From a virus (Duplodnaviria; Caudoviricetes): a DNA stretch of 64,000 bases. The DNA is taken from the IMG/VR virus record IMGVR_UViG_3300005438_000120, positions 33,467-97,466 of that record; one strand, given 5' to 3'. Positions 8,282 to 32,268 of this stretch are shown one piece after another. How positions within the stretch are numbered: position 1 is the first letter of the stretch; every line of letters starts with the position of its first letter. The position numbers and the translations under genes were made by a program. Under the pieces are notes generated by a model. The model did no database searches. It worked only from the letters and a program-made list of their open reading frames with translations, and was not told the origin of the DNA.

Positions 8282-8629
8282 TCATGAGCGACTCCTGCGT
8301 TCGCGATATTCTGCGAGGTCAAGTTCAAGAGTTTCTTTCGGTGTGGGCCATTCTCGCCACTGATGTCCGGCGCGCGCATCATCGTGAAGATGTTTCGAAA
8401 TCGAGCACCGAACTGGCATGCCCGGCGTTCCTGCGGTCAGATGTCCACAGCACTGCCGTCCTCGTTGGTACTCATGAAAGCGCGCCTTGCAACCCTGACC
8501 TACGCCCTGATCGTGCGGCGGGTAGCAATCGAGGCAGAGCCGCGCGTGACCAGACTCCATGAAGGTCATCGCGAATCCCCAACAGCAGGAACACGTAGAA
8601 GGCTTCTCAACTCGGCGGAAATCGCTCAC
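8282..8629 (-). CDS. Cys/His-rich hypothetical protein
   Basis: GTGA-coupled ORF. Confidence 0.5.
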   Translation of the reverse strand: MSDFRRVEKPSTCSCCWGFAMTFMESGHARLCLDCYPPHDQGVGQGCKARFHEYQRGRQCCGHLTAGTPGMPVRCSISKHLHDDARAGHQWREWPTPKETLELDLAEYRERRSRS

Positions 8630-9690
8630 CGGCTCACTACCTTGACCACATCACGCGGCGCGAGGAACGGCTTACCTTCCGGCCCCTTCACGAACGGAGC
8701 GATATAGATCAACCTCACGACCCATCGATGCTGCCATTCGCGCTCCGTTTCGCCGGTCTCTCGTTCGGCGTACACGCGGCGCAACCGCACGACCATCACT
8801 TTCGGGAGCGGCTTGTTGGCGCGCTGCGCGGCGCGAGTAGCCTGACGCGGCAATCTCGCTGACTCGCGCTGCACGACTTCAAGCTCCATGAAGCCAAGCA
8901 ACGCTGCGATGTCAATCCAAAACTGCCCCTTGTTGTAATTGATCTCGCCGCGCGGGATGTTTTTGTCAATCCACTTGTCAGAGCGCAAAGCGAGCAGTTC
9001 GCCGCGCCGGATGTGCGTTGATCCGATCTGAAGTGGCTTCCGTGCGCCACGAGTCCAGAACGCCACGGCGTAGCATTCGGTCTCGCCGATCGAGAGAATC
9101 ACCGCCATGTCGCTCAGCAGAAGAATCGAGGCGCATGGCTTCGCGTCGAATGGCATTCCGACAAAGGCATCAGCACCGCGAAGCGCTGCCCGCTGCAAGT
9201 CAGCATCCCACGCGATGATCTCCGCGTTGGTAGCTGCGCGCATCTGCTCAACCGGAATCCTTTCGTCCGTGCCGGTGAAAAACTCACCGAGCAACGCGTC
9301 TCGGGCCTCGATTGCATCGAACGGCGTTCGTGTGGCGTTGTGGAGCTTTTCGATTACCCGCGCGAGTCGTGCTCGCTGAGGAATGACCTTAGAATCGTTG
9401 CACTTGTTGCAACATCTTCCTTCGTACGGGGCCGCGCTATTACCGCATAGGATCACTTCGCCGCCGCAGAGGTCGCAGACGTGATAGCCCTTCGCGACGA
9501 TGCCGCTCCTTCCGCAAACATGCTCAGCGGCGTTGCGTACCGCGAATGCACCTTCGTCCCCATCTTTCGGCATCGTGCCTTCGAGCATCAGTCGATTGCC
9601 GTCCGGTAGGTCTACGGTGAATTGATCGTCCGTACCCTCAACCGGCGACATCGGCAACTCGATATCGTTCGTCTCGGCATCATCGCTCAC
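8626..9690 (-). CDS. Hypothetical phage protein with central Zn ribbon and C-terminal WVVR...IAPFVKGP motif
   Basis: GTG at 9690 overlaps stop of the ATPase gene. Confidence 0.6.
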   Translation of the reverse strand: MSDDAETNDIELPMSPVEGTDDQFTVDLPDGNRLMLEGTMPKDGDEGAFAVRNAAEHVCGRSGIVAKGYHVCDLCGGEVILCGNSAAPYEGRCCNKCNDSKVIPQRARLARVIEKLHNATRTPFDAIEARDALLGEFFTGTDERIPVEQMRAATNAEIIAWDADLQRAALRGADAFVGMPFDAKPCASILLLSDMAVILSIGETECYAVAFWTRGARKPLQIGSTHIRRGELLALRSDKWIDKNIPRGEINYNKGQFWIDIAALLGFMELEVVQRESARLPRQATRAAQRANKPLPKVMVVRLRRVYAERETGETEREWQHRWVVRLIYIAPFVKGPEGKPFLAPRDVVKVVSR

Positions 9691-11117
9691 GGTCCCGCCT
9701 CTCGGTACATCTTCGCGAGCAACGCCCCGAGTCGGCAGCACTCCTCGTGAAACGAATTACTCAGGTGGTCCGACACGCGATCGTGCGCGAGTTCGTGCAA
9801 CAGCAACTCATTCAGCGCGTCCTCGTCAAGCGTATCTTCGCGCAGCGTCGGCACGCGCGGCACATTGACGATCAGTTCCGAATCTCCGTAGCAAGCGACG
9901 AAGGGCCAATTGCGATCGTTTGCGAAATGCACGGCGATCTCCTTGCCTATGATCCGTTCCGCTACACGCTTCGCATGACTCCGCGCCCGCAGCATCACTG
10001 GGGTCTCCACGTCTACCATCTTCAGCGGCTTCCCTCCGGGCTTGAACGGTTTCGGCGATGGTGTAACCTTCCCGGCAGGCAGCAACGCTGCCGCGCTCCG
10101 TACGTTCCGCCACGCATCAGCAGAATACGCGCCGCCCGGAACGACGGTGAATCCTTGCGTGACGGCGATCTTCGTCCCTTCGGTGTCCGATGGATCGTTG
10201 ATTACTGCGCGATCTCCGAACTGAAGTTTCACGACAGCGCGTACGGCATCCTGCGAAACGTCGGGATCTTCCATCGCGTTGCGAACCCACGGCGCGCGCG
10301 AATCGTCATCACGAAGCTCGCCGAACGTCGCCGACAGAACGACCGCTCGGAGTTGCTGAAGATACGCAGACGTCACGTTATCGCGATTCATGTTCAGCGG
10401 TATTTTCTGATGGACGTTGTAGTGAAACTTTTCGCCGGTAGCGACTACCGGAATCCCCATTTCGAAGATGTGCGCTTCCTCGCCTTCACGGACACGCCAG
10501 ACCGCAACCAGCGTCTTTCGAAGGGAGCGGCGCAGGATGCCTGTGCCGTCGCTGATTTCTGTCGGCAATGTCGCCGAGGGCGCAGCAATGAGGTCCGCGT
10601 AGTCGCGTTTGATCGGAACGTCATTAAGCGTCACTGCAATCTGCGTCGGCGGGATGATGAGGCGCAGGAGATCGCACGCGGCGCGGAGTTCGTCGCGCGT
10701 CATCGAAATCAACGCGGAGAATCGCGAGCCTTGTTTCGTTTTCTCGCGCAGCCGATGACGGCCTTGCGCATCGAAACGAACAGCGCCAGTGGTCGTCGTG
10801 ATTGTCGCTTCACGGCAGAGCGAGAGGATCAGCTTCTCGCCGAGATTGAAGCGCCCGCGCTTCTCAGGGTTCGCTTTGCGGCTTGACTCCGCGAACAACG
10901 TCCATGCGTGTGCGAGATTTTCGAAACCGAGAGGCGAGTCATCCGTGACGGTCAGTAGCGCGGTTGCTTGATTCGCGATCGGATGCAGCACCAAATCTAC
11001 GCGCGTCGTTCCTTCGGCATCGAAAGCATTCTGAGCGAGTTCCAGAATCGCCGCAGACTTGCCGCGCGCATCTAGCAGCTTGCGAAGTCCTTCCTTGTCC
11101 ACATCGAACCAGTTCAT
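9687..11117 (-). CDS. GHKL (HATPase_c-type) ATPase with C-terminal HExxH domain
   Basis: ELAQNAFDA, DDSPLGF, RGRFNLGEK, then LLHELAHD...H...F. Confidence 0.75.
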   Translation of the reverse strand: MNWFDVDKEGLRKLLDARGKSAAILELAQNAFDAEGTTRVDLVLHPIANQATALLTVTDDSPLGFENLAHAWTLFAESSRKANPEKRGRFNLGEKLILSLCREATITTTTGAVRFDAQGRHRLREKTKQGSRFSALISMTRDELRAACDLLRLIIPPTQIAVTLNDVPIKRDYADLIAAPSATLPTEISDGTGILRRSLRKTLVAVWRVREGEEAHIFEMGIPVVATGEKFHYNVHQKIPLNMNRDNVTSAYLQQLRAVVLSATFGELRDDDSRAPWVRNAMEDPDVSQDAVRAVVKLQFGDRAVINDPSDTEGTKIAVTQGFTVVPGGAYSADAWRNVRSAAALLPAGKVTPSPKPFKPGGKPLKMVDVETPVMLRARSHAKRVAERIIGKEIAVHFANDRNWPFVACYGDSELIVNVPRVPTLREDTLDEDALNELLLHELAHDRVSDHLSNSFHEECCRLGALLAKMYREAGP

Positions 11118-21706: not shown

Positions 21707-22177
21707 ATGCCGATACGGGAGGGTACTTACGCGGCGCTTCTGCGCGACCCGCGATGGCAGCGTCGCCGACTAGAAATCATGTCGCGTGATAATTTCGCGT
21801 GTCGGGATTGCGGAAACGACGAAGAAACACTCAACGTTCACCACCTGTATTACCGATCTAGCTTTGCTCCGTGGGAATACTCGGATTCCGCGTTGGTGAC
21901 GTGGTGCGAACCGTGCCACGAGTATTTCAGCTTGACCGGAGAGCGGCGAACGAAAACCGAGCTAGCGAACGATTGGCGACTCGGTGAGGACTTGATTTAC
22001 GAAGCGTTGTGCGAGTACGGCGCTACGCCACCGTCGCCATCCGTCATCGCCGAATTTCGTCACCTGTTGCCGGAGTCCGCTATCCTCGCGGTGGTTAACC
22101 GTCTCGCTTGGGATGGGCGGCTCAACGAATCGGGCGCGCTCGTTTCGGCTGTTCAGATGGAGGCTGGGCGCGCATGA
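21707..22177 (+). CDS. HNH-type endonuclease-like protein
   Basis: LRDPRWQRRRLEIMSRDNFACRDCG...LNVHHLYY...CEPCH. Confidence 0.8.
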   Translation: MPIREGTYAALLRDPRWQRRRLEIMSRDNFACRDCGNDEETLNVHHLYYRSSFAPWEYSDSALVTWCEPCHEYFSLTGERRTKTELANDWRLGEDLIYEALCEYGATPPSPSVIAEFRHLLPESAILAVVNRLAWDGRLNESGALVSAVQMEAGRA

Positions 22178-22986
22178 GCTATGGGCGAATCCACCGGTCA
22201 TTTTTCGATTCGTCCATCAACGACACCGAACCAGAAACGAGGCTAGTTTTTATTTACATGATCGTCTCCAGCGACCGAGAGGGGCGAATCGACATCACGC
22301 GGTCGTCTCTCGCGCGAAGGTTGAACCTTCAGGCTACTGCCATCGATCGCGCCATCGAAGTGCTTGGTGCGCCAGACGAGCGTAGCCGGACGCCAGATCA
22401 CGAAGGAAGGCGAATCATTCCTATCGAAGATCGGCGAGATTGGGGATGGATCGTGGTGAACAAAGAACAGTACCGAGATGCGGGCGAACCCGATGACGAA
22501 GCGGACAGGGCAGCGGCGAGAGATCGAAAACGGAAACAAAGAGAGCGCGATAATTCAAATTCTCTTTCACGGGGTTCTAATTTAGATTCTGTATCTAATA
22601 CAGAAGAATCTAAACACACACCGAGCGTGACCGTCACGCCGAGTCACAGAAAAAATGTGACATGGTGTGACGCGACTTTCGCGGAGTGCTGGAAACTTGT
22701 CCCACGAAAAGAGGGTAAGCGCGAGGCGCGAAAGCACTTCGATGCGTTCGTGAATGCGATCACCAAGCGCGGCGGCACGGATGAAGATTTGGAAGCGTTC
22801 GCTTTGGATTTGGGGCGCGCCATCTCAAACTACTCGCGGAAGGTTGAAGAGGAACGAATCGAGCCGCGATTCGTCAAGATGGGATCAACGCTGATTTTCA
22901 ATTACGAAGACTACATCGACTACCGACCGCTGACGCGCGCCGCCGAGAAGCCGCGCAAGCCGGGACGAATGGGCGTAGTGATCTGA
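22174..22986 (+). CDS. Phage replication initiator (lambda O-like organisation)
   Basis: N-terminal wHTH-like region, R.RK..QR linker, W..VPRKEGK C-domain; directly upstream of primase-helicase. Confidence 0.7.
   Translation: MSYGRIHRSFFDSSINDTEPETRLVFIYMIVSSDREGRIDITRSSLARRLNLQATAIDRAIEVLGAPDERSRTPDHEGRRIIPIEDRRDWGWIVVNKEQYRDAGEPDDEADRAAARDRKRKQRERDNSNSLSRGSNLDSVSNTEESKHTPSVTVTPSHRKNVTWCDATFAECWKLVPRKEGKREARKHFDAFVNAITKRGGTDEDLEAFALDLGRAISNYSRKVEEERIEPRFVKMGSTLIFNYEDYIDYRPLTRAAEKPRKPGRMGVVI
22550..22675. other. Putative replication origin inside initiator gene
   Basis: AT-rich imperfect palindrome 22581-22614 followed by five GTGAC/GTCAC copies (22627, 22633, 22643, 22657, 22667). Confidence 0.55.
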
Positions 22987-24758
22987 TGGTCGCGACTCTG
23001 GATGATGTTCTTGCTCGGTTGCCGTCGCATCGAAAATCAGGCGGAGGATTTATCGCGCGATGCCCTGCTCATGACGATAGGCACGCATCGCTTTCCGTAG
23101 CGGCGGGCGGCACGGTGCCGGTGGTGTTGAGTTGTAAGGCCGGTTGTGATTTTGAATCGGTCTCTTCGGCTCTCGGCTTCGCGAAGGGTGAGCTGACGAG
23201 AGATTCTGATTCCGACTCGAAATCAAAAGCGTCGCGCCCGCGTCGCCACGTCGCAACCTACACTTACCGCAATCAAGACGGGTCTGTGTTCGCACGAAAG
23301 GACCGCTGGTTAGACGACGAAGGACGAAAGACGTTCGTGTGGTCGCGGCCTAATCCAATAGTTGAGGGAGATTGGCTGACCGGAACGGACGGGTACATTC
23401 CGCTTTATCGGTTGCCGGAACTCTGCGGTGCGCCGCAGGAAACAACCGTGATCGTAGTCGAGGGAGAAAAGGATTGCGATCGGCTGGCGTCTCTCGGGTT
23501 CGTGACAACGACGACTCCGAACGGGGCCGCTTCAAAGTGGCGCACGGATGACTCGCGATTTTTCGCCGCACGCCGCGTATGCATCATTGCGGACGACGAC
23601 GATCCCGGTCGAAAGATGGCGGAGCGGTTCGTATCTGCGCTAAAACCTGTCGCGCTCTCTGTCGGATTCGTGACGATGCCGAATCCGAACGGAATCAAAG
23701 GATTTGACACTTCCGACTTTTTAGAATCGGGAGGGAGTATCGCGGAACTAACCGCGATCGTAGAGGGATTCGACAAGCCGAAGATTCCGGCAGAAGTGGT
23801 GTCGTCGTCCGATCTGAAAGAGCGCGTGCTTCAGCTTTGGGAGGAGGGCGACCATCCCGGAGTCTTTCCAGGTTGGGATGTTCTTCGTGAGCTGTACCGC
23901 CCGCGCGCTGGAGAGCTAACGATTATTACCGGCGCGCCGGGGGCTGGTAAGTCGAACTTTTTAGACGACATGATGGTTCGTATTTCGCTCGGCGACCAAT
24001 CATTCCAAGGGGAGATGAGGGCTGGATGGAAATGGCTAATCTACTCGCCTGAAAACTTCCCGCCACAGCGACACGCCGCCGCGCTGCTGCGGAAGTTTAT
24101 CGGCAAGCCGTTCAACCGAGGGCCTAATCCTCGAATGAGCGAGGCGGAGATTCACCATTTCTGGCATCTCATCGAAAAGCACTTTACGATTCTCGATCCG
24201 TCATTCAACGGCTGTAACTTAGATCGAATTTTAGAAGTCGCTCGGATTGTGAATCAAGCGAAGGGCATCGACGGGCTAGTAATCGATCCGTACAATGTCG
24301 TCGCGGCCACGTCACGTACGCGCGGGCAGAGCGAGCATGATTTCGTGAACGAGGCGCTGCAAAAAATTAAGCTGTTCGCGCACTCTGAAAACGTTCACGT
24401 GATGATGGTCGCGCATCCGACAAAACTTAAGCGCGAGTCGTCTGATGACGAGTATCCAGTGCCGCGCCCGTGGGACATCTCTGGCTCAGCTTCGTTTTTC
24501 AACCATCCCGACGCGATCATCAGCCTGTGGCGTTCGCTTCTGAATGAGGACCGAATCAACTCTGGCGAAGTTGAGATCCATTCGCAAAAAATTCGATTTC
24601 AACCTGAATGCGGAACACTAGGAATGGCGCTCCTCTATTTCGACCGCATCACTACGCGCTTCATGGAGCAACCTCATGAAGGGTTCGCGCGCCGCGTGAC
24701 CGATGGTTCGAAAACGCAAAAACGCGGCGAACGAATATTAGGGAGGGACCGGTGGTGA
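22986..24758 (+). CDS. Bifunctional primase-helicase (TOPRIM + SF4 helicase)
   Basis: CPAHDD..C..GC Zn domain, VEGEKD, ADDDDPG, GAPGAGKS, VIDPYN, VAHP.K, DISGS. Confidence 0.9.
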   Translation: MVATLDDVLARLPSHRKSGGGFIARCPAHDDRHASLSVAAGGTVPVVLSCKAGCDFESVSSALGFAKGELTRDSDSDSKSKASRPRRHVATYTYRNQDGSVFARKDRWLDDEGRKTFVWSRPNPIVEGDWLTGTDGYIPLYRLPELCGAPQETTVIVVEGEKDCDRLASLGFVTTTTPNGAASKWRTDDSRFFAARRVCIIADDDDPGRKMAERFVSALKPVALSVGFVTMPNPNGIKGFDTSDFLESGGSIAELTAIVEGFDKPKIPAEVVSSSDLKERVLQLWEEGDHPGVFPGWDVLRELYRPRAGELTIITGAPGAGKSNFLDDMMVRISLGDQSFQGEMRAGWKWLIYSPENFPPQRHAAALLRKFIGKPFNRGPNPRMSEAEIHHFWHLIEKHFTILDPSFNGCNLDRILEVARIVNQAKGIDGLVIDPYNVVAATSRTRGQSEHDFVNEALQKIKLFAHSENVHVMMVAHPTKLKRESSDDEYPVPRPWDISGSASFFNHPDAIISLWRSLLNEDRINSGEVEIHSQKIRFQPECGTLGMALLYFDRITTRFMEQPHEGFARRVTDGSKTQKRGERILGRDRW

Positions 24759-25045
24759 TCCGGGCCACTATTCCGATTCGCCTCTCAACACGCATCGCGT
24801 ACTTCCGTCACGCGGCAGGGCTAACGCAATTCGAAGTCGCGCGGCGTTCGGGTATCGGACCGAAGTCGATTGGATCATGGGAGACGGGTCACGCCGAGCC
24901 GCGCATAACGCAACTGCTCCGCATCCTGAAAGCGTGCGGCGTGACGCCTGCCGAATTCTTCGATTGCGATCTGCGTCTAGCCGAATCCAGAATAAGAGTC
25001 CCCGGTCATCGCGAAGTCATCGCGCACGAAAGCGTCGCCAATTGA
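24752..25045 (+). CDS. XRE-family HTH regulator
   Basis: GLTQFEVARRSGIGPKSIGSWETG..EP. Confidence 0.85.
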   Translation: MVIRATIPIRLSTRIAYFRHAAGLTQFEVARRSGIGPKSIGSWETGHAEPRITQLLRILKACGVTPAEFFDCDLRLAESRIRVPGHREVIAHESVAN

Positions 25046-25360
25046 ACTGCGCTCGATGCGACGAAGGCCATCACGAGCGCTGCAAGCAGGCGGGCTGTAG
25101 TTGCCGCGCCCCGCATCTCGGACGGTGCGAGCTTTGCGGGAAGGTGAACGTCAAGCCCGATCCGCTACTGTCGGGGCGCGAGATACTTTGCCCACCATGC
25201 CTCGTCACGTTCGAGGAGCATCCGCCGAGCGCGGAACTCGATTGGGAGTCGGCGTTCGATCGCAACATCGCGGCGGCGCGGTTCATAGCCGAAACATTGA
25301 CTTCTCAGGCTCGCAAAAATAACGCTTGACATTGCCGGAAGCATTGCGGATGATGTGCGC

Positions 25361-25630
25361 ATGGCAACAACACATGAAGAGCGAAGTGTACTGGCGCTGA
25401 AGGCTGCACGCGTCCGATGGGCGGATCACGTCAAGCGCCACGAATTGCTCGGCGTCTCTCGCGCATCGTATCGGCGTTACATGCTCCCGAAGGGTCATCC
25501 CGAACGCAGGAAGATGCCGCGCGACGTGCGCGCGAGATTCGAAGCGTTGCGTGAGCAACAACGCAACCGGAGGTACGCACGGAAGCTCGATCCGTCATGC
25601 GTCGAAAAAGCGAAGATGAGGAAGTCATGA
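25361..25630 (+). CDS. Small basic protein, leaderless, first gene of clamp operon
   Basis: TTGACA(25326)-N17-GATGAT-N6-ATG; LLGVSRASYRRY HTH-like. Confidence 0.55.
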   Translation: MATTHEERSVLALKAARVRWADHVKRHELLGVSRASYRRYMLPKGHPERRKMPRDVRARFEALREQQRNRRYARKLDPSCVEKAKMRKS

Positions 25631-26742
25631 GTGCATCCGCAATCTTCAACGGTGCGGCCCTTCTAGCCGAGCTTCGTTTCGTCGGTCAAGTATGCCAGAA
25701 GCGCAGCACGATCCCGATCCTACGGAGCGTTCTGATTGATTTGATGGGGACGACAGCTACGCTCACAGCGACAAATCTAGACGTAATTGCACGCGCTGAA
25801 TGCGTGACGCTGTCCGGCGATGCGCGCGTCGCTACCACCGCGCCTGCTGATCTCTTAATCTCGGCGCTCTCTGGGCTGATCGGCGATGACGCGGAAGCAG
25901 CAATCGAATTTCGCGTACACGATGGCCGCGTTAATCTAGCTTACGACGGCTGCGTGATGAAGATCGACGGGCAGCCTACGGACGATTATCCGACGTTACC
26001 GGAGTTCACGCCTGATCTACCCGCATCTATCGAGACGGCGGAATTTTTAACAGCAGTCCGCAGCACAAAGTTCGCTATCACGCGTGAGGAGATACCTTTC
26101 CAGCTCAACGGCGCGTTGATGAACATCAGCCGATCCGCAGTCGAGATCGCGGCGACTGACGGACATCGGCTCGCGATAGCGACATTTAAAACTGACGCGA
26201 GAAATCCCGACGGACATAGCCTAATCCCGCGTGTAGCCTTGGATACGCTTTTGTTGTTCGATGGGATCGATCCCGTCATCACGTTCGGCGAGCGGGATTT
26301 CTATCGGCATTTCGTCTGCGGTCACCGCCGTATCGTCTCGCGCGTGCTTGATGTCAACTTTCCGAACTACCGAAAAGTCATCGCGAAAGATTTAGACCGC
26401 ACGGCGATAGTCAACGCTGAGGCGATGACTTGCGCGCTCACTCGCGTGATGCCATTAGTAAATCTGAGTACGCGCTCTGTGCGGTTGATGTTCAGCGTCG
26501 ACACGCTGCGGCTCAATGTCGTCAATCCTGAATGCGGAGAGGCATCGGCAACAGTAGCCGTCAGTTACTCAGGCCCTGATATGTTCGTCGGAATGAACGC
26601 CACTTACTTGCGAGATTTCTTTGCACAGTTTAGCGGCGATGTAAGCGTGACGATGCGAAACGAGAACTCGATGGTCGTTTTCCGTCCGGTTGATCGTGAC
26701 GGCGAATACACGTACGTTCTGATGCCGATGAGGCTCGCATGA
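25627..26742 (+). CDS. dnaN: DNA polymerase III beta sliding clamp, copy 1
   Basis: STIPIL, ATNLD, DYP.LP, LNG, ATDGHRLA, FPNY..VI, N..YL, VLMPMR. Confidence 0.93.
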   Translation: MSASAIFNGAALLAELRFVGQVCQKRSTIPILRSVLIDLMGTTATLTATNLDVIARAECVTLSGDARVATTAPADLLISALSGLIGDDAEAAIEFRVHDGRVNLAYDGCVMKIDGQPTDDYPTLPEFTPDLPASIETAEFLTAVRSTKFAITREEIPFQLNGALMNISRSAVEIAATDGHRLAIATFKTDARNPDGHSLIPRVALDTLLLFDGIDPVITFGERDFYRHFVCGHRRIVSRVLDVNFPNYRKVIAKDLDRTAIVNAEAMTCALTRVMPLVNLSTRSVRLMFSVDTLRLNVVNPECGEASATVAVSYSGPDMFVGMNATYLRDFFAQFSGDVSVTMRNENSMVVFRPVDRDGEYTYVLMPMRLA

Positions 26743-27878
26743 CCGCCATCACCGTCCCGCGCGATGCCCTCGCATCCGAGCTAACCTTCTGCGGTTCGGC
26801 AGTCAACAAACGTCACCACATCGAAATCCTGAAGGGCGTTCTGTTTTCGGTCCAGAAGGCGAACCTGTTCATTCGTGCTACCGATCTTGAATTGACGGCG
26901 TTCGCGTCGGTGCTCTCGGTTGAAGATTCGGCAACGAGCGACGGCGAATTCACAACAGAGCTAAGTCCCGTGTTGGACTTCGCGCGCCGTGCTCCTGAAG
27001 ACACGGTTACGTTTGATGCGAGCAAGGGTTACGTCACGCTGTCGTCAGGCGGGGCGAAACTGAAGCTGCCCACGCTGCCAGCCGAACTCTTCCCATCCGA
27101 TCCGCGCGAAGTCGTTGCTGATGATCCAGAAATCGAAATGGCGCGGCTGCCGGTTGCGTCCCTGCTCTCCATCGTTCGCGCCACATCGTCAGCAATCGGA
27201 GAGGAGAAAATCCGCTTCGATTTGACGGGCGCGTTGCTGACGGCAGGCAAGGGCAAATTCGATTCTGTAGCTACAAACGGAGTTCGAATCGCTTACGCCA
27301 GCGCACCAGCGACGACAGAAGATGGCCGTCGCGCCCAACTCGGCAAGCGAGCGCTCGAAGGCATCGTGAAGATTGCCGATGACGGCGAAGCGCGGATCAC
27401 GGCTACCGAGAATTGGACGGCGGTAACGGTAGGTGAGCGGACGCTGATGTCTAGAGCAGCGGACGTGAACTTCCCCGCGTGGCGTGAAGTGATTCCGAAG
27501 TCGTACGCGGTCGCAATCGAGATGCGCGCGGATTCTTTGTTAGGCGCTGTGCGCCGCGCGATGGTAGCTGCCGACGAAGGCTCGAAAGAGTTGAAGCTGT
27601 CGCTGACGAAGGGCGGAATCACGCTGTCTGCCGTCCATGCCGCGCGGTCTGCTGACGACCGACTCGCCGTCGATTATTCGGGCGAAGATTTCACCGTGAG
27701 CGTGAACGGCGGTCACTTCTCGGAAGCCTTGAGCGCGATGGGTGATTGCGTGTTCAAGCTGTCGTTTACTCAGCCAACGGGCGGAGTGTTGACGAGCGGA
27801 ATGATGCGGCTAGAACCGGTTCCTGATCCCGATTCCGACTTAGAGCAGATGCATTTGATCATGCCGATCGTGAGGTAG
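26739..27878 (+). CDS. dnaN: Beta sliding clamp, diverged copy 2
   Basis: ILKGV, ATDLE, RFDLTG, ATNGVRIA, NFPAWREVIP, LIMPIV; full three-domain length. Confidence 0.85.
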   Translation: MTAITVPRDALASELTFCGSAVNKRHHIEILKGVLFSVQKANLFIRATDLELTAFASVLSVEDSATSDGEFTTELSPVLDFARRAPEDTVTFDASKGYVTLSSGGAKLKLPTLPAELFPSDPREVVADDPEIEMARLPVASLLSIVRATSSAIGEEKIRFDLTGALLTAGKGKFDSVATNGVRIAYASAPATTEDGRRAQLGKRALEGIVKIADDGEARITATENWTAVTVGERTLMSRAADVNFPAWREVIPKSYAVAIEMRADSLLGAVRRAMVAADEGSKELKLSLTKGGITLSAVHAARSADDRLAVDYSGEDFTVSVNGGHFSEALSAMGDCVFKLSFTQPTGGVLTSGMMRLEPVPDPDSDLEQMHLIMPIVR

Positions 27879-27880
27879 TC

Positions 27881-28691
27881 ATGAAGAGAACCTGCAAATT
27901 GATCGAGGCGTCGTTTGAACCGCGCGATAACTTCCGTGTCGGGAAGATGCCGGAGCGACCGTCAGCGCCGAGTTTTGTTGACCGATCACCTGACACGGTA
28001 GATTACGACTTAGCGACGGTTGACGGAGTCGCACGATATGTATCCGCAGTCAAAGATTTTGCCCGCAGCGTTGAAGCGTTTGAGCGCGAAGTCGATGACT
28101 TTGAAGGGGAAGTCGAAACCTATGCTGACGCTGTCGATGATGCGTACGATAACGCGGACACGCCGGAGCTACTGAAATCGTTCACTGGCGGGGACGTGCA
28201 CCGCGAGATCGATCAGGCCGGAGTTTTGCCGGGGGACGAGGTCGTGATGCTTTTGCGGGGCGATTACGACCGCCTAGTCCGCGCTGCGAACGAAGAATGC
28301 GCGTGTGTGTTCGATAGCGCCGGTAAGTGCATCCATCGCGGCTGTGGGCTCACGACGGCGGATTGGGATGAATCTACGCCAGCGATGGATTGGGCGGAGG
28401 CCGCGCATGGCTGAGAAACGAATCGGGATCGGAAAGAAAATAGCGTTCTATCTCGCTTCCCTCCGCGCCTCCGATGAAGCGCCGAAGTTGGGTGACATCA
28501 TGGATGCGCTGAACCTGCGAACCGGCACGGCCTGCGGAGAGCGTTTACGCGAGTATCGGCAGCGTCATGGCGTTCCGATCACCTGCGATCTCCGAACCTA
28601 CCGCTACGAGATGCCGATGAAGCAACGCCGCGAGATTCGAAAGACGGATGAATACCGAAAATGGAAGCGCGGATTTCTGACTCCTATGTGA
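27881..28691 (+). CDS. Two hypothetical proteins (27881..28414 acidic; 28407..28691 basic, HTH-like)
   Basis: Coupled ORFs. Confidence 0.55.
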
Positions 28692-28720
28692 GTCAGATTT
28701 CGAGAAAAACGGAGGGAACC

Positions 28721-29008
28721 ATGAGCATCAACGAACTACGGGTCGCGACGGATCGGGCAGTGGCGGCAGAGATCAACAGTATCGAGACGCGGTTGGCGGT
28801 TTTGCGGGGCGAGGTGCCGGTGCCGATGTTCTTTGCATCTGCGGCGACGGTCGCGCCTCACGTCACGCTTTCCTTCGTGAGCGCAGCTAAGCCGAAAGCC
28901 AAGCGACGCAAGGTTTCGCCGCAGCAGGCCGAGTCGCGGCGGATTCAGGGCAAGTTCTTGAGCCTCATTCGGACTCCGATTCGACGCAGACATCCGAGAG
29001 TCAATTGA
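28721..29008 (+). CDS. Hypothetical basic protein, 3' end probably at a deletion junction
   Basis: GGAGG RBS; last ~13 codons overlap MTase-coding sequence. Confidence 0.55.
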   Translation: MSINELRVATDRAVAAEINSIETRLAVLRGEVPVPMFFASAATVAPHVTLSFVSAAKPKAKRRKVSPQQAESRRIQGKFLSLIRTPIRRRHPRVN

Positions 29009-29930
29009 TCTCCCCGCCATCGACGTTCTCACGGGCGGATTCCCGTGTCAAGACCTCAGCGTCGCAGGAAGGCGAGCCGGTCTGGCCGGTGGCAGAAGTG
29101 GGCTTTTCTTTGAACTCGTACGAATTTTGGAGAGCACTCACCCAGAGTGGTTTTGCTTCGAAAACGTTCCCGGTCTACTGTCAAGCAATTCCGGCAGAGA
29201 CATGGGAGTCGTTCTCTCCTCGCTGGTCGAATGCGGGTACGGCGTCGCGTATCGGGTTCTCAACGCACAGTTTTTCGGAGTCGCCCAACGACGCCGTAGG
29301 GTGTTCGTTGTCGGACATTCTTCAGGAGACTACAGACGTGCCGCAGCGGTTTTATTTGAGCGCCAAGGCGTGCGCTGGAATTCTTCGCAGGAGCGCCAAT
29401 CGGGGCGTAGCCCTTCCGTCTTCTCTGTCGGAGGCTTTGGAGGCTACCGTGACAACGGACAAGATGATGGTTCGAAACTTGTCGTCATTCCGATCCAATA
29501 CGCCGAGCAATGGGGACGAGACAAACGGCAGAACGGCACTGGCATCGGAGACCCAGGCGGTCCCTCCTACACGCTTGACCGAAGCTATGAGCACGGCGTT
29601 ATGGTCTCGCATACGTTGCGCGGCTCCGAAGGTTTTGACGCGAGCGAGGACGGCACGGGGCGCGGAGTTCCTGTCTTCGCTTTCAACCATCAGAGCGGCG
29701 GTAGCAAACCTAGGATCGGAGGATCAAATGAGTTCTCCGACGCTCTTAGTAGATCGCAAACCTCCGCTATCTACAGTGCGTCGATTGACACCTCTAGAAT
29801 GCGAAAGACTTCAGGGGTTCCCCGACCATTGGACGTGCGTGAAGTTGCCGAAAGTTCGGAGATCACCGACGAAGAATCACCCGAAGTGGGCGCCATTGAC
29901 GCGCTTGAAAAGAGCGCGGCATCGCAATGA
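28962..29930 (+). pseudogene. C5 cytosine methyltransferase, catalytic frame lacking motif I
   Basis: Frame open from 28962: DADIRE..IDVLTGGFPCQDLS (IV), ENVPGL (VI), QRRRRVF (VIII); in-frame stop at 28959-28961 and no FxGxG. Confidence 0.75.
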
Positions 29931-29934
29931 ATGA
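29005..29934 (+). CDS. Overlapping-frame C5-MTase partner polypeptide carrying motif IX
   Basis: SLSDIL...FYLSAKACAGILRR and RRLTPLECERLQGFPDHWT. Confidence 0.7.
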   Translation: MISPPSTFSRADSRVKTSASQEGEPVWPVAEVGFSLNSYEFWRALTQSGFASKTFPVYCQAIPAETWESFSPRWSNAGTASRIGFSTHSFSESPNDAVGCSLSDILQETTDVPQRFYLSAKACAGILRRSANRGVALPSSLSEALEATVTTDKMMVRNLSSFRSNTPSNGDETNGRTALASETQAVPPTRLTEAMSTALWSRIRCAAPKVLTRARTARGAEFLSSLSTIRAAVANLGSEDQMSSPTLLVDRKPPLSTVRRLTPLECERLQGFPDHWTCVKLPKVRRSPTKNHPKWAPLTRLKRARHRNE

Positions 29935-30132
29935 ATACGGAGGTACCCGCCGCTTGGCTTACGACTTCGGAGATTCAATCGGCATGGCTGTTTTTGTGCC
30001 CGTCTGCGAAAAATGCTCTCGGTTCGTAAAGGCGGGAACGGTGCGCGCGGGAGAGGGCGGGTTAGCTGATGAGCCGAACGCGGAGTGTTCGCGCCATGGG
30101 GCCATCAAGATGCTTTTCGAGGGATTCATGTG

Positions 30133-30552
30133 ATGGTCGCGAACTCCGTCACGCCTGCCGAATACCGCCAATTGCTGACGAGTCGCGCGCCGAAGGGAAA
30201 GAAAATCTACGCGCTCGGCAGGTTGAAGGCCGGAACGATGAACGGGCTGGAGTCGCGGTATGCCGCTCATTTGGAGTTGCGAAAGGCTGTCGGTGAAGTG
30301 GCGTGGTGGGAGTTCGAAGGCATCAAGCTAAGGCTCGCCGACGCTACATTCCTAACCGTCGATTTCGATGTGATGCTCGCGGACGGAACGATAGAGCTGC
30401 ACGATACGAAAGGCGGACCGATCGAAGATGATGCCGCCGTGAAGATCAAGCTCGCGGCTGAAAAGTACCCCTTCCGGTTTTTTGTGGTCCGTGAAAACCG
30501 GAAACGCGACGGCGGCGGGTTCATTTTGAAGGAAGTCAGTGAAGGGCTTTAG
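30133..30552 (+). CDS. PD-(D/E)xK nuclease, DUF1064-like / putative resolvase
   Basis: MNGLESRYA...LRLAD...VDF...HDTKG...VKIK.AAE.YP. Confidence 0.7.
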   Translation: MVANSVTPAEYRQLLTSRAPKGKKIYALGRLKAGTMNGLESRYAAHLELRKAVGEVAWWEFEGIKLRLADATFLTVDFDVMLADGTIELHDTKGGPIEDDAAVKIKLAAEKYPFRFFVVRENRKRDGGGFILKEVSEGL

Positions 30553-32268
30553 ATGGCAAATCGCCGCATAGAAATTGGCCGCACCGAGAGCCATCCGCTC
30601 TCGATTGATCTGATGACGCTGGTCGATACGCGGCTGCTAGTGCAGGCCAACAGCGGTGGAGGAAAGTCGGGAACGCTCCGGCTGATCGCGGAACGTGCCT
30701 CGCCGCACATTCAGACCATCATCCTCGATAACGACGGCGAGTTCGCCACGCTTCGCGAAAAGGTAGACATGCTACTGATCGGCGAAGGCGGCGAAGTCCC
30801 GGCTACGGTTCGCTCGGCAGGGTTGCTTGCTCGGCGACTTTTAGAAGCGCAGGTGTCGGCGGTAGTCGATATGTACGAAATGGGGTTGAACGAGCGGCGC
30901 GATTTCGTAGCCGAGTTCCTGAAATCGCTGATATCCCTGCCGCGCAGTCTGTGGCGTCCAACGTTGATCGGGCTTGACGAGGCGCACCTGTACGCGCCGC
31001 AGAGCGGTGAGGAATCATCTAGCGAGTGGGTTGCAGCGCTTCTAGCGCAGGGGCGCAAGCGGGGATACTGCGCGATCGTAGCGACGCAGAGGCTTTCAAA
31101 ACTGCACAAAGATGTAGCCGCTGAATGCAACAACGTCCTTATCGGTCGTACGTGGCTTGACGTAGATCAAAAGCGCGCGGGAGACATTCTCGGCATGTCG
31201 AAAGCGGACAGCGTCGCGCTCCGCGATTTGCCGCCGCAAACATTCTACGGATTCGGTCCCGCGTTCTCGGTGAATGGCGTTTTCAAGATGCGGACGGATG
31301 ATGTCGCTACTACGATGCCGAAAGCCGGACATCGTTTCGACGTGGCTGTTCCTCCGCCATCATCCAAGGTGCGTTCGATTCTCGCGGCGGAATTCGCGAA
31401 CCTTCCTGCTGAAGCGGAAGAGCAGGCGCGTGACTTAACGGACGCACGGCGCAAGATTGTCGAGTTGCAACGGCAGCTTCAAGCTAAGCCGTCTGCCGCA
31501 CCTAGCGGCGCTGATCTTCTGCGCGCTAAAACCGAAGGCAAGCGCGAATCGGATGCGGTATGGAAAGCTACGACCGCTGCGCTTGAAGCAGCACGGCGCG
31601 ATGATCGTTTCCGGTTCGAACGACTACGCCGCTTACTCGCGAAACTTGCGCCGATGTTTTCCGACTTCGCGAAAGAGCTTTCCGTCGAACTTCCTGATGT
31701 GAAGATGCCGGAGGCGGTTCCGGTACCGCCGTCGCACGGTCACGCTACACCGTCGCGCCCTCTCGTTCGTGAGGTTGCGCGCAGGGTCGCACCATCAAAC
31801 GGTTCGTCAGCGGACGGCGAATTGCCGCGCGGAGAAAAGGCGACGTTGATCGTCTGTGCTCAATATCCGGACGGGGCAACTCGTGAACAGATGACCGTGC
31901 TGACCGGTTACAAAAGGTCTACGCGAGATGCGTACATCCAGCGCCTGCGCGAAAGGGGTTACGTAGATGTGCGAGGCGAGCTTATTCTCGCGACAGATGA
32001 GGGTGTCGCGGCTCTCGGGAGCGATTTCGAGCCGCTGCCGGTTGGCGCAGATTTGCGGGCGTACTGGCTTGCCAAACTTCCGGGCGGCGAGCGTGCCGTC
32101 CTTCAGGTGTTGATCGATGCTCATCCTGACGCGGTTGAGCGTTCGGAGATAGACAAGGTGACCGGATTCAAACGCTCTACTCGTGACGCCTATTTGCAGC
32201 GATTGCAGGTGAAGCGGCTCGTGACTTCGGATCGCGGCGAGGTGCGGGCGAGTGAGTTACTTTTCTGA
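30553..32268 (+). CDS. HerA/FtsK-like ATPase with two C-terminal winged-helix repeats
   Basis: ANSGGGKS, DEAH..AP, GRKRG...ATQR; two TG(Y/F)KRSTRDAYxQRL repeats. Confidence 0.8.
   Translation: MANRRIEIGRTESHPLSIDLMTLVDTRLLVQANSGGGKSGTLRLIAERASPHIQTIILDNDGEFATLREKVDMLLIGEGGEVPATVRSAGLLARRLLEAQVSAVVDMYEMGLNERRDFVAEFLKSLISLPRSLWRPTLIGLDEAHLYAPQSGEESSSEWVAALLAQGRKRGYCAIVATQRLSKLHKDVAAECNNVLIGRTWLDVDQKRAGDILGMSKADSVALRDLPPQTFYGFGPAFSVNGVFKMRTDDVATTMPKAGHRFDVAVPPPSSKVRSILAAEFANLPAEAEEQARDLTDARRKIVELQRQLQAKPSAAPSGADLLRAKTEGKRESDAVWKATTAALEAARRDDRFRFERLRRLLAKLAPMFSDFAKELSVELPDVKMPEAVPVPPSHGHATPSRPLVREVARRVAPSNGSSADGELPRGEKATLIVCAQYPDGATREQMTVLTGYKRSTRDAYIQRLRERGYVDVRGELILATDEGVAALGSDFEPLPVGADLRAYWLAKLPGGERAVLQVLIDAHPDAVERSEIDKVTGFKRSTRDAYLQRLQVKRLVTSDRGEVRASELLF

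What the first reader, a model, noticed from the sequence alone, without database searches (positions are those of the whole stretch)
25326..27878. Two tandem, coupled, diverged beta sliding clamps with no polymerase or loader in view
Seen: two full-length DnaN genes overlap by ATGA in an operon with its own promoter. Copy 1 keeps ATDGHRL and MPMR; copy 2 has ATNGVRI and MPIV. Known: bacterial clamps are homodimers and these segments line the pocket that binds QL(S/D)LF-type motifs. Inference: a 1:1 heterodimeric clamp with asymmetric pockets (analogous to heterotrimeric crenarchaeal PCNA), or a decoy that mixes with host DnaN to redirect the replisome.
Basis: partly seen in the sequence, partly recalled or inferred. 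Interest (0 to 1): 0.72.

Follow-up and report, generated by a model that had tools for sequence, protein, structure and literature searches.

The report
Two coupled sliding-clamp genes in phage
An uncultured large phage carries two adjacent, very different but intact copies of the bacterial DNA sliding-clamp gene and no DNA polymerase in the 97 kb held; none of about 240 other phage clamp loci checked has a second copy, and whether the two proteins share one ring is untested.

Summary
Copy 1 runs 25627-26742 (371 aa; this ATG is the better start than 25597). Copy 2 runs 26739-27878 (379 aa). They overlap by ATGA and are 27% identical. Each passes all three Pfam beta-clamp domains and folds confidently (pLDDT 91, TM 0.87-0.92 to E. 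coli beta).

They are the middle of a four-gene coupled cassette (89-aa basic protein, dnaN1, dnaN2, 177-aa acidic protein). It sits after the initiator and primase-helicase genes of a phage record of at least 97 kb, estimated 71% complete. No A, B, C or Y family polymerase or clamp loader is in that record.

A second dnaN is rare: 0 of 101 GenBank phage records and 0 of 160 IMG/VR dnaN loci have one.

Both copies branch beside Acidobacteriota host DnaN but are not sisters (AU p 0.038).
- Copy 2 belongs to a tiny family seen on other large contigs, mostly with no copy-1 partner detected.
- Copy 1 has one relative, apparently on the same contig as a copy-2 relative.

Copy 1 keeps the canonical pocket but lost the basic dimer-interface residues of its host-like kin. 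Copy 2 keeps conserved interface edges but has an altered pocket.

Heterodimer against two homodimers could not be settled. The decoy reading is unlikely. This scan earlier noted fused two-protomer clamps on other phage DNA.

The parts
25326..25354 (+). Promoter-like site TTGACA-17 nt-GATGAT in the gap before the cassette
   Evidence: 10 of 12 matches, the best in 22000-30500, but the count of such sites is at chance level. Function not shown.
25361..25630 (+). 89-aa very basic small protein, first gene of the cassette. Its stop overlaps the copy 1 start by ATGA.
   Evidence: No Pfam or PHROG match. Reading the LGVSRASYRRY stretch as a helix-turn-helix is my guess only.
25627..26742 (+). dnaN copy 1 (371 aa): beta sliding clamp with a canonical peptide pocket (TDGHRL, MPMRL) and a diverged dimer interface
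   Evidence: Pfam, phrog_947, AF2 pLDDT 91.6, Foldseek TM 0.87 to E. coli beta, residue map. Nearest relatives are P0022 at 48%, then Acidobacteriota DnaN at 37-39%.
26739..27878 (+). dnaN copy 2 (379 aa): beta sliding clamp of a rare family, with an altered pocket (N173, V175, I177, H323, I364, V365, R366 in E. coli numbering)
   Evidence: Pfam, phrog_947, AF2 pLDDT 91.0, Foldseek TM 0.88-0.92 to E. coli beta, family alignment, residue map, family size.
27881..28414 (+). 177-aa acidic protein of unknown function, last gene of the cassette, starting 2 nt after the copy 2 stop
   Evidence: No Pfam, PHROG or Atlas lead.
22108..24758 (+). Context: replication initiator-like gene (22108-22986) and primase-helicase (22986-24758; zinc ribbon, Toprim, DnaB_C/AAA_25)

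Best explanation
Both genes encode working beta sliding clamps that the phage makes together, from one coupled four-gene cassette in its replication module. The clamps ride on phage DNA, probably loaded by the host clamp loader and used by host Pol III, since the 97 kb held encodes neither. I think the most likely arrangement is two separate homodimeric rings with divided labour.

Copy 1 keeps the canonical cleft and would serve the host loader and polymerase. Copy 2 is the hallmark clamp of this phage lineage. In this phage its cleft has changed, so it would serve a different, still unidentified set of partners or resist something that targets the canonical cleft.

Shown: two intact, diverged, co-oriented and overlapping genes; their fold; their pocket and interface residues; their rarity as a pair; their separate ancestry. 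Inferred: expression, loading by the host, homodimer state, division of labour.
For: - Both are full-length with all three domains and give confident models matching E. coli beta.
- Both have GC and GC3 values inside the range of the other phage genes, and each has a GAGG 5-6 nt before its ATG.
- Each has relatives conserved over its full length: copy 2 at 94, 58, 57, 47, 36 and 36%, copy 1 at 48%. Neither is therefore decaying.
- No copy-1-family partner was detected for copy-2 relatives P0002-P0005 and P0141. The profile search finds only P0021 and P0022 before dropping from 726 to 297 bits.
- The two interface edges of copy 2 (GGAKLKLPTLP and AARSA[DE][DE]) are nevertheless almost unchanged across its family. 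This fits self-closure.
- Copy 1 keeps T172, D173, G174, H175, R176, L177 and M362-L366; copy 2 changes seven pocket positions.
- Single phage dnaN genes are annotated in GenBank phage records, for example Rhizobium phage 16-3 and Aurantimonas phage AmM-1.
- A lambda small RNA that enhances translation of host dnaN and affects phage DNA replication suggests that clamp supply matters to phages (section headings of bioRxiv 10.1101/2024.10.31.621285).
Against: - The absence of copy-1 partners in relatives rests on a word-indexed protein search and on contig lengths. The contigs themselves could not be read.
- Copy 1 lacks the basic domain-I interface residues of its host-type kin, so its own homodimer is not assured.
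- No phage protein in the replication module carries a recognisable clamp-binding motif, so copy 2 has no identified client.
- Both copies have fewer basic residues on the inner helices than host clamps: +6 and +8 against +13 to +14.
- The record is about 71% complete, so a phage polymerase may exist in the missing part.
Confidence: 0.4

Rival explanations
1. The two proteins form one heterodimeric ring, obligately or as an option, with two unlike clefts. Copy 1 supplies the canonical cleft for the host loader and polymerase. Copy 2 supplies the ring-closing interfaces and a private cleft. Such a ring would load and support synthesis but be poorly unloaded, staying on phage DNA as a landing pad.
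For: - The genes are adjacent and overlap by ATGA.
- The copy-1 family has just two members. P0022 and the copy-2 relative P0006 are each recorded on a single Logan contig of 124,492 bp, so copy-1-type genes are seen only alongside copy-2-type genes.
- The copy-1 family replaced K73, R74 and K/R105 of host-type clamps with D/E, L and V/T. Copy 2 keeps K105 and K107 and has an invariant R300 with acidic 303 and 304, so the charges could be complementary (interface positions from PMC12269063).
- A natural 806-aa DnaN-DnaN fusion with halves 40% identical recurs in five assemblies. Earlier scan notes report fused phage clamps.
- An engineered E. coli heterodimer with one cleft loads and supports Pol III normally but is poorly unloaded (PMC2685083).
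Against: - No copy-1 partner was detected for five copy-2 relatives, although their interface is unchanged.
- Four-base overlaps occur at six or more junctions in this window.
- In the P0022/P0006 pair both clefts are canonical, so cleft asymmetry is not the ancestral reason for the pair.
- The charge argument rests on an alignment, not a structure of the complex.
Confidence: 0.33
2. Decoy: one copy mixes with the host DnaN or soaks up host clamp partners, shutting down or redirecting host replication.
For: Copy 1 keeps a canonical cleft and is closest to Acidobacteriota host DnaN, so it could compete for the host loader and polymerase.
Against: - It is only 37-39% identical to host-type clamps and lacks their basic interface residues.
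- Beta dimers are very stable (PMC12269063), so subunit mixing is unlikely.
- A decoy needs no second full-length clamp.
- Both copies keep R24, and both give full, confident three-domain clamp models.
Confidence: 0.07
3. Redundancy: one copy is a recent extra capture with no distinct role, on its way to loss.
For: No copy-1-type gene was detected even for the 94% relative of copy 2 (P0002). Phages acquire dnaN repeatedly: an unrelated single dnaN sits in a record whose TerL is 39% identical.
Against: - Copy 1 is intact, folds confidently and has phage-like composition.
- It is 48% identical to P0022 across its whole length, which shows long retention.
- Neither copy has a frameshift or truncation.
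Confidence: 0.08
4. The clamps belong to a complete phage-encoded Pol III-type replisome whose polymerase and loader lie in the roughly 29% of the genome that is missing.
For: CheckV completeness is 71%. Copy-2 relatives lie on contigs of 72-124 kb, so genomes of about 120 kb or more are plausible.
Against: The replication module (recombinase, exonuclease, SNF2 helicase, initiator, primase-helicase, clamps, resolvase) is contiguous at 16-31 kb and holds no polymerase. The whole 97 kb gave no match to PF07733, PF00476, PF00136, PF00817 or PF13177.
Confidence: 0.12

Closest known systems
Single phage-encoded DnaN (phrog_947, 'DNA polymerase processivity factor'), e.g. Rhizobium phage 16-3 p081, Aurantimonas phage AmM-1, Salinibacter and Paracoccus phages
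   Same: A bacterial-type three-domain beta clamp carried by a phage.
   Different: All 101 GenBank phage records with a match have exactly one place. Here there are two copies, 27% identical and overlapping.
Bacterial chromosomes with a second dnaN paralogue (e.g. the griselimycin self-resistance clamp of Streptomyces; from my own knowledge, not checked here)
   Same: Two diverged clamps in one genome, one with an altered pocket.
   Different: Those are unlinked chromosomal genes with a resistance role. This is a coupled pair in a phage replication module.
Engineered E. coli beta+/betaC heterodimer (Scouten Ponticelli et al. 2009, PMC2685083)
   Same: A ring with one working cleft and one altered cleft. 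It loads and supports Pol III but is poorly unloaded.
   Different: It is a laboratory construct from one gene. Here there are two natural paralogues, and no evidence yet that they pair.
Heterotrimeric PCNA of Crenarchaeota (from my own knowledge)
   Different: A different clamp family (two-domain subunits, trimer). Assembly is shown there and not here.
Single-chain DnaN-DnaN fusions (P0160 here; earlier scan notes e1-5673849 and e1-3808984)
   Same: Two diverged beta-clamp protomers that must share one ring.
   Different: They are fused in one polypeptide and only 23-25% identical to the window's copies. P0160 is chromosomal (contigs of 3.2-3.4 Mb).
Clamp use in phage late transcription (Mu MuC with host beta, PMC12867686, whose Discussion draws the parallel with T4)
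   Same: A possible non-replicative role for a clamp left on phage DNA.
   Different: No MuC/Mor-type factor and no clamp-binding motif was found near this cassette.

Membership tests
Bacterial beta sliding clamp (DnaN) | Three tandem domains PF00712, PF02767, PF02768 in about 370 residues | tested here: met
   Both copies exceed all three curated cut-offs.
Bacterial beta sliding clamp (DnaN) | Six-fold pseudo-symmetric half-ring fold | tested here: met
   AF2 pLDDT 91.6 and 91.0, pTM 0.86 for each. Foldseek TM 0.87 (copy 1) and 0.88-0.92 (copy 2) to E. coli beta.
Bacterial beta sliding clamp (DnaN) | Canonical hydrophobic cleft (E. coli T172, G174, H175, R176, L177, P242, V247, M362, P363, M364, R365) | tested here: met
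   Met for copy 1 at every listed position. Copy 2 departs at 175 (V), 177 (I), 364 (I) and 365 (V), and also at 173, 323 and 366. The list of cleft residues is from my memory of the published structures.
Bacterial beta sliding clamp (DnaN) | Head-to-tail homodimer closed by domain I - domain III contacts | not testable with these tools
   Only monomer prediction was available. The alignment shows diverged interface residues in both copies.
Bacterial beta sliding clamp (DnaN) | Loaded by a DnaX-type clamp loader and used by a C-family polymerase | not testable with these tools
   Neither is encoded in the 97-kb record. Use of the host's is inferred.
Heteromeric sliding clamp (as in crenarchaeal PCNA1-2-3) | Distinct paralogues that assemble only with each other | not testable with these tools
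   There are hints only: co-occurrence of the two families on two contigs and possibly complementary interface charges.
Heteromeric sliding clamp (as in crenarchaeal PCNA1-2-3) | Both paralogues retained together in relatives | tested here: inconclusive
   The pair is apparently kept on the 124,492-bp contig (P0022 and P0006). No copy-1-type protein was found for P0002-P0005 or P0141. The contigs could not be read.

The most novel reading that the evidence does not exclude
A natural heterodimeric bacterial-type beta clamp. Copy 1 gives the canonical cleft that the host loader and Pol III need. Copy 2 gives a private cleft. The asymmetric ring loads normally but resists unloading, marking replicated phage DNA for phage-specific partners.
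Probability: 0.3. Interest if true: 0.8.

Novelty: new variant of a known kind. Interest (0 to 1): 0.55.

Why it matters
All characterised bacterial beta clamps that I know of are homodimers with two identical clefts. How one ring shares its clefts among polymerases, the loader and repair proteins has so far been studied with engineered heterodimers.

A natural pair of diverged, co-expressed clamps would give either a ready-made asymmetric ring or two clamps with separate partner sets in one cell. Either would show how a phage without its own polymerase takes over the host replisome. It would also yield a natural variant cleft to compare with the canonical cleft that clamp-directed antibiotics bind.

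Tried and rejected
- **Relatives' contigs:** Synteny rests on contig lengths only.
- **Copy-2 profile scans:** IMG/VR gave nothing. The metagenome and genome scans returned only host-type DnaN at 23-28%.
- **Copy-1 profile scan of IMG/VR:** nothing.
- **TerL relatives (26-40% identity):** one of five records has a single, unrelated dnaN.
- **Related primases:** none of 77 loci has a dnaN within 7 kb.
- **Clamp-binding motifs:** the scan of phage proteins gave no convincing hit.
- **Flanking proteins:** Pfam, PHROG and Atlas gave nothing for the 89-aa and 177-aa proteins.
- **First 33 kb of the record:** I first took it for host DNA because of giant TIG, PKD and NHL proteins.
- **Recent in-phage duplication:** weakly rejected (AU p 0.038).
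- **Literature:** five searches found no report of tandem dnaN in a phage.
Full report
**What is there.** Two ORFs on the + strand, 25597..26742 and 26739..27878, each pass the curated Pfam cut-offs for the N-terminal, central and C-terminal domains of the DNA polymerase III beta subunit. Both match phrog_947, 'DNA polymerase processivity factor'. They are 27% identical over their full length. The junction reads ...ATGCCGATGAGGCTCGCATGACC, so the start of copy 2 overlaps the stop of copy 1 by ATGA.

The better start for copy 1 is ATG 25627 rather than 25597. It follows a GAGG, it overlaps by ATGA the stop of an 89-aa basic ORF (25361-25630), and the database gene call also has 371 residues. 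A 177-aa acidic ORF starts 2 nt after the copy 2 stop. The unit is therefore four coupled genes. The three junctions look alike (TGAGG, 5-6 nt, ATG). At the ends of the two clamp genes, the Arg codon AGG of the conserved C-terminus supplies the ribosome-binding site for the next gene.

A promoter-like TTGACA-17-GATGAT sits at 25326-25354, but the count of such sites in the region is at chance level.

**Both proteins look functional.** AlphaFold2 models built with alignments have mean pLDDT 91.6 (copy 1) and 91.0 (copy 2), each with pTM 0.86 and the full three-domain pattern of strands and helices. Foldseek puts E. coli, Pseudomonas and Thermotoga beta clamps on top, with TM 0.87 for copy 1 and 0.88-0.92 for copy 2. 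GC and GC3 values of both genes lie inside the range of the other phage genes. Neither gene has a frameshift or truncation.

**Setting.** The window is the last 64 kb of a 97,466-bp IMG/VR virus record, linear, estimated 71% complete. Upstream of the cassette lie:
- an ERF recombinase and a YqaJ exonuclease;
- an SNF2 helicase and an N6/N4 methylase;
- an HNH nuclease and an initiator-like protein;
- a zinc-ribbon/Toprim/DnaB-type primase-helicase and a Cro/CI-type HTH protein.

Downstream lie a C5 methylase split over two frames, a Holliday-junction resolvase, a HerA-like ATPase, the large terminase, the portal and the tail genes.

I first took the first 33 kb of the record for host DNA, because it encodes giant TIG, PKD and NHL-repeat proteins. 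That fits those domains and makes the whole record phage.

Searches of the whole record with Pol III alpha, Pol A, Pol B, Y-family and clamp-loader profiles found nothing. 'No polymerase or loader in view' therefore holds for 97 kb. With about 29% of the genome missing, it is not proof of absence.

**Rarity.**
- tblastn of copy 1 against 50,697 GenBank phage records found 101 records with a dnaN, each with exactly one place. Copy 2 found 48 records, again one place each.
- Two samples of IMG/VR dnaN loci with 4-5 kb flanks (160 loci, 141 distinct clamp sequences, 139 with at least 1.2 kb on both sides) contained no second DnaN ORF, even a fragment.
- None of 84 metagenome and genome loci had one either.
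- None of 77 viral loci with a related primase has any dnaN within 7 kb.
- Of five records whose large terminase is 31-40% identical, one has a single, unrelated dnaN.
- Five literature searches gave no report of tandem dnaN in a phage.

**Ancestry.** Copy 1 has one close relative, P0022 (48%). After that come roughly two thousand Acidobacteriota and Thermoanaerobaculia DnaN proteins at 37-39%. A profile of the two finds nothing else before dropping from 726 to 297 bits.

Copy 2 belongs to a very small family:
- P0002, 94% identical, contig 17.4 kb;
- P0003, 58%;
- P0004, 57%, contig 72 kb;
- P0005, 47%, contig 115.5 kb;
- P0006, 36%, contig 124.5 kb;
- P0141, 36%, contig 120.8 kb.

In a full HMMER search of 1.84 billion representatives, scores then fall steeply into ordinary DnaN.

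A maximum-likelihood tree places Acidobacteriota host clamps next to a group of long-branched, unnamed clamps (support 94/89). This group holds the copy-1 family and, further in (97/83), the copy-2 family among others. Forcing the two families into one exclusive clade costs 8.3 log-likelihood units (AU p 0.038). A duplication private to this phage lineage is therefore weakly rejected. Both copies descend from Acidobacteriota-type dnaN by separate routes. This also points to an Acidobacteriota-like host.

**Is the pair kept?** P0022 (copy-1 type) and P0006 (copy-2 type) are each recorded on a single Logan contig of 124,492 bp. This is almost certainly the same contig, so the pair has survived divergence down to 48% and 36% identity. 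No copy-1-type protein turned up for the contigs of P0002, P0003, P0004, P0005 or P0141.

The absence therefore rests on a word-indexed search and on a lower length limit of about 200 residues. Taken at face value, copy 2 is the constant clamp of this phage group and copy 1 is an accessory seen only beside it.

**Residues.** I aligned both families, four Acidobacteriota clamps and E. coli beta.

Copy 1 and P0022 keep every cleft residue I checked apart from peripheral positions. Copy 2 and P0002 have N173, V175, I177, H323, I364, V365 and R366. P0003 and P0004 keep DGHR but have PIVR and PIER. P0005 and P0006 keep both DGHR and MPMR. The altered cleft is therefore a recent change inside the copy-2 family, not the original reason for having two clamps.

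At the dimer interface (positions from PMC12269063), host-type clamps have K73, R74, K/R105, F106 and R107 facing I/L272, V273, E298, D301 and E304.
- The copy-1 family has D/E73, L74, V/T105, M106 and D109, with a less acidic domain-III edge.
- The copy-2 family keeps K105 and K107 and has an invariant R300 with acidic 303 and 304.
- Its two interface strands (GGAKLKLPTLP and AARSA[DE][DE]) are almost unchanged across the family.

Both copies carry fewer basic residues on the inner helices than host clamps: +6 and +8 against +13 to +14.

**Reading.** I take it as well supported that both genes make working clamps for phage DNA replication, most likely with the host's loader and Pol III.

The state of assembly is open. 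In favour of two homodimers:
- copy 2 seems to stand alone in most relatives, with the same interface;
- every characterised beta clamp I know of is a homodimer;
- four-base overlaps occur at six or more junctions in this window, so the ATGA is not special.

In favour of a heterodimer:
- copy-1-type genes are seen only beside copy-2-type genes;
- copy 1 lost the salt-bridge partners of its kin in a way that copy 2 might complement;
- nature does build rings from two diverged DnaN protomers. P0160 is an 806-aa fusion whose halves are 40% identical. It is conserved at 91-99.6% in five assemblies, on contigs up to 3.4 Mb. This scan's earlier notes also describe fused phage clamps (unchecked).

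If a heterodimer forms, published work on an engineered one-cleft E. coli clamp predicts normal loading and synthesis but poor unloading (PMC2685083). Such a ring would stay on phage DNA. A possible use would be recruitment of phage factors, as Mu does with the host clamp (PMC12867686). I found no clamp-binding motif in the phage's replication proteins to support that.

The decoy idea is weak. Both copies are far from host clamps at the interface, and beta dimers are very stable.

**Verdict.** This is a rare variant of a known thing (a phage-borne beta clamp). I put two separate rings at about 0.40, a heterodimer at about 0.33, and the remainder on the decoy, redundancy and missing-polymerase readings.

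Noticed in passing
P0160 (protein; not in the window): A natural 806-aa single-chain DnaN-DnaN fusion. Its halves are 40% identical to each other. Five full-length versions at 91-99.6% identity occur in independent assemblies, on contigs of up to 3.2-3.4 Mb, so it is chromosomal in some bacterium. The nearest single clamps are Proteobacteria-type at 31-34%.
   Followed up: partly
window 29005-29934 and 29127-29930 (+): A C5 cytosine methylase is split over two overlapping frames. Pfam positions 99-165 fall in one frame and 255-295 in the other. This is a frameshift, a sequencing error or a broken gene.
   Followed up: no
window 25361-28414: The three junctions of the cassette share the pattern TGAGG, 5-6 nt, ATG(A). 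At the ends of the two clamp genes the Arg codon AGG of the conserved C-terminus (MPMRL, MPIVR) doubles as the ribosome-binding site of the next gene.
   Followed up: partly
window 9687-11117 (-) and 8626-9741 (-): A 475-aa protein with a weak GHKL/HATPase_c_3 match, followed by a 370-aa protein with no match, on the opposite strand to the phage early genes. This may be a defence or counter-defence pair.
   Followed up: no
window 30553-32268 (+): A HerA/DUF87-type ATPase of 571 aa lies between the resolvase and the terminase region. It is not an RFC-type clamp loader, and its role is unknown.
   Followed up: no
P0225 (protein): A fluorescent protein-E. coli DnaN laboratory fusion is present in the public protein collection: a reminder that the collection holds engineered sequences.
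   Followed up: yes
L260:9722-10870 (IMGVR_UViG_3300005529_000029): A 75-kb phage record whose TerL is 39% identical carries a single dnaN with ATDAHRL instead of ATDGHRL. It is unrelated to either window copy (23-29%). This shows that phages of this broad group capture dnaN repeatedly.
   Followed up: partly
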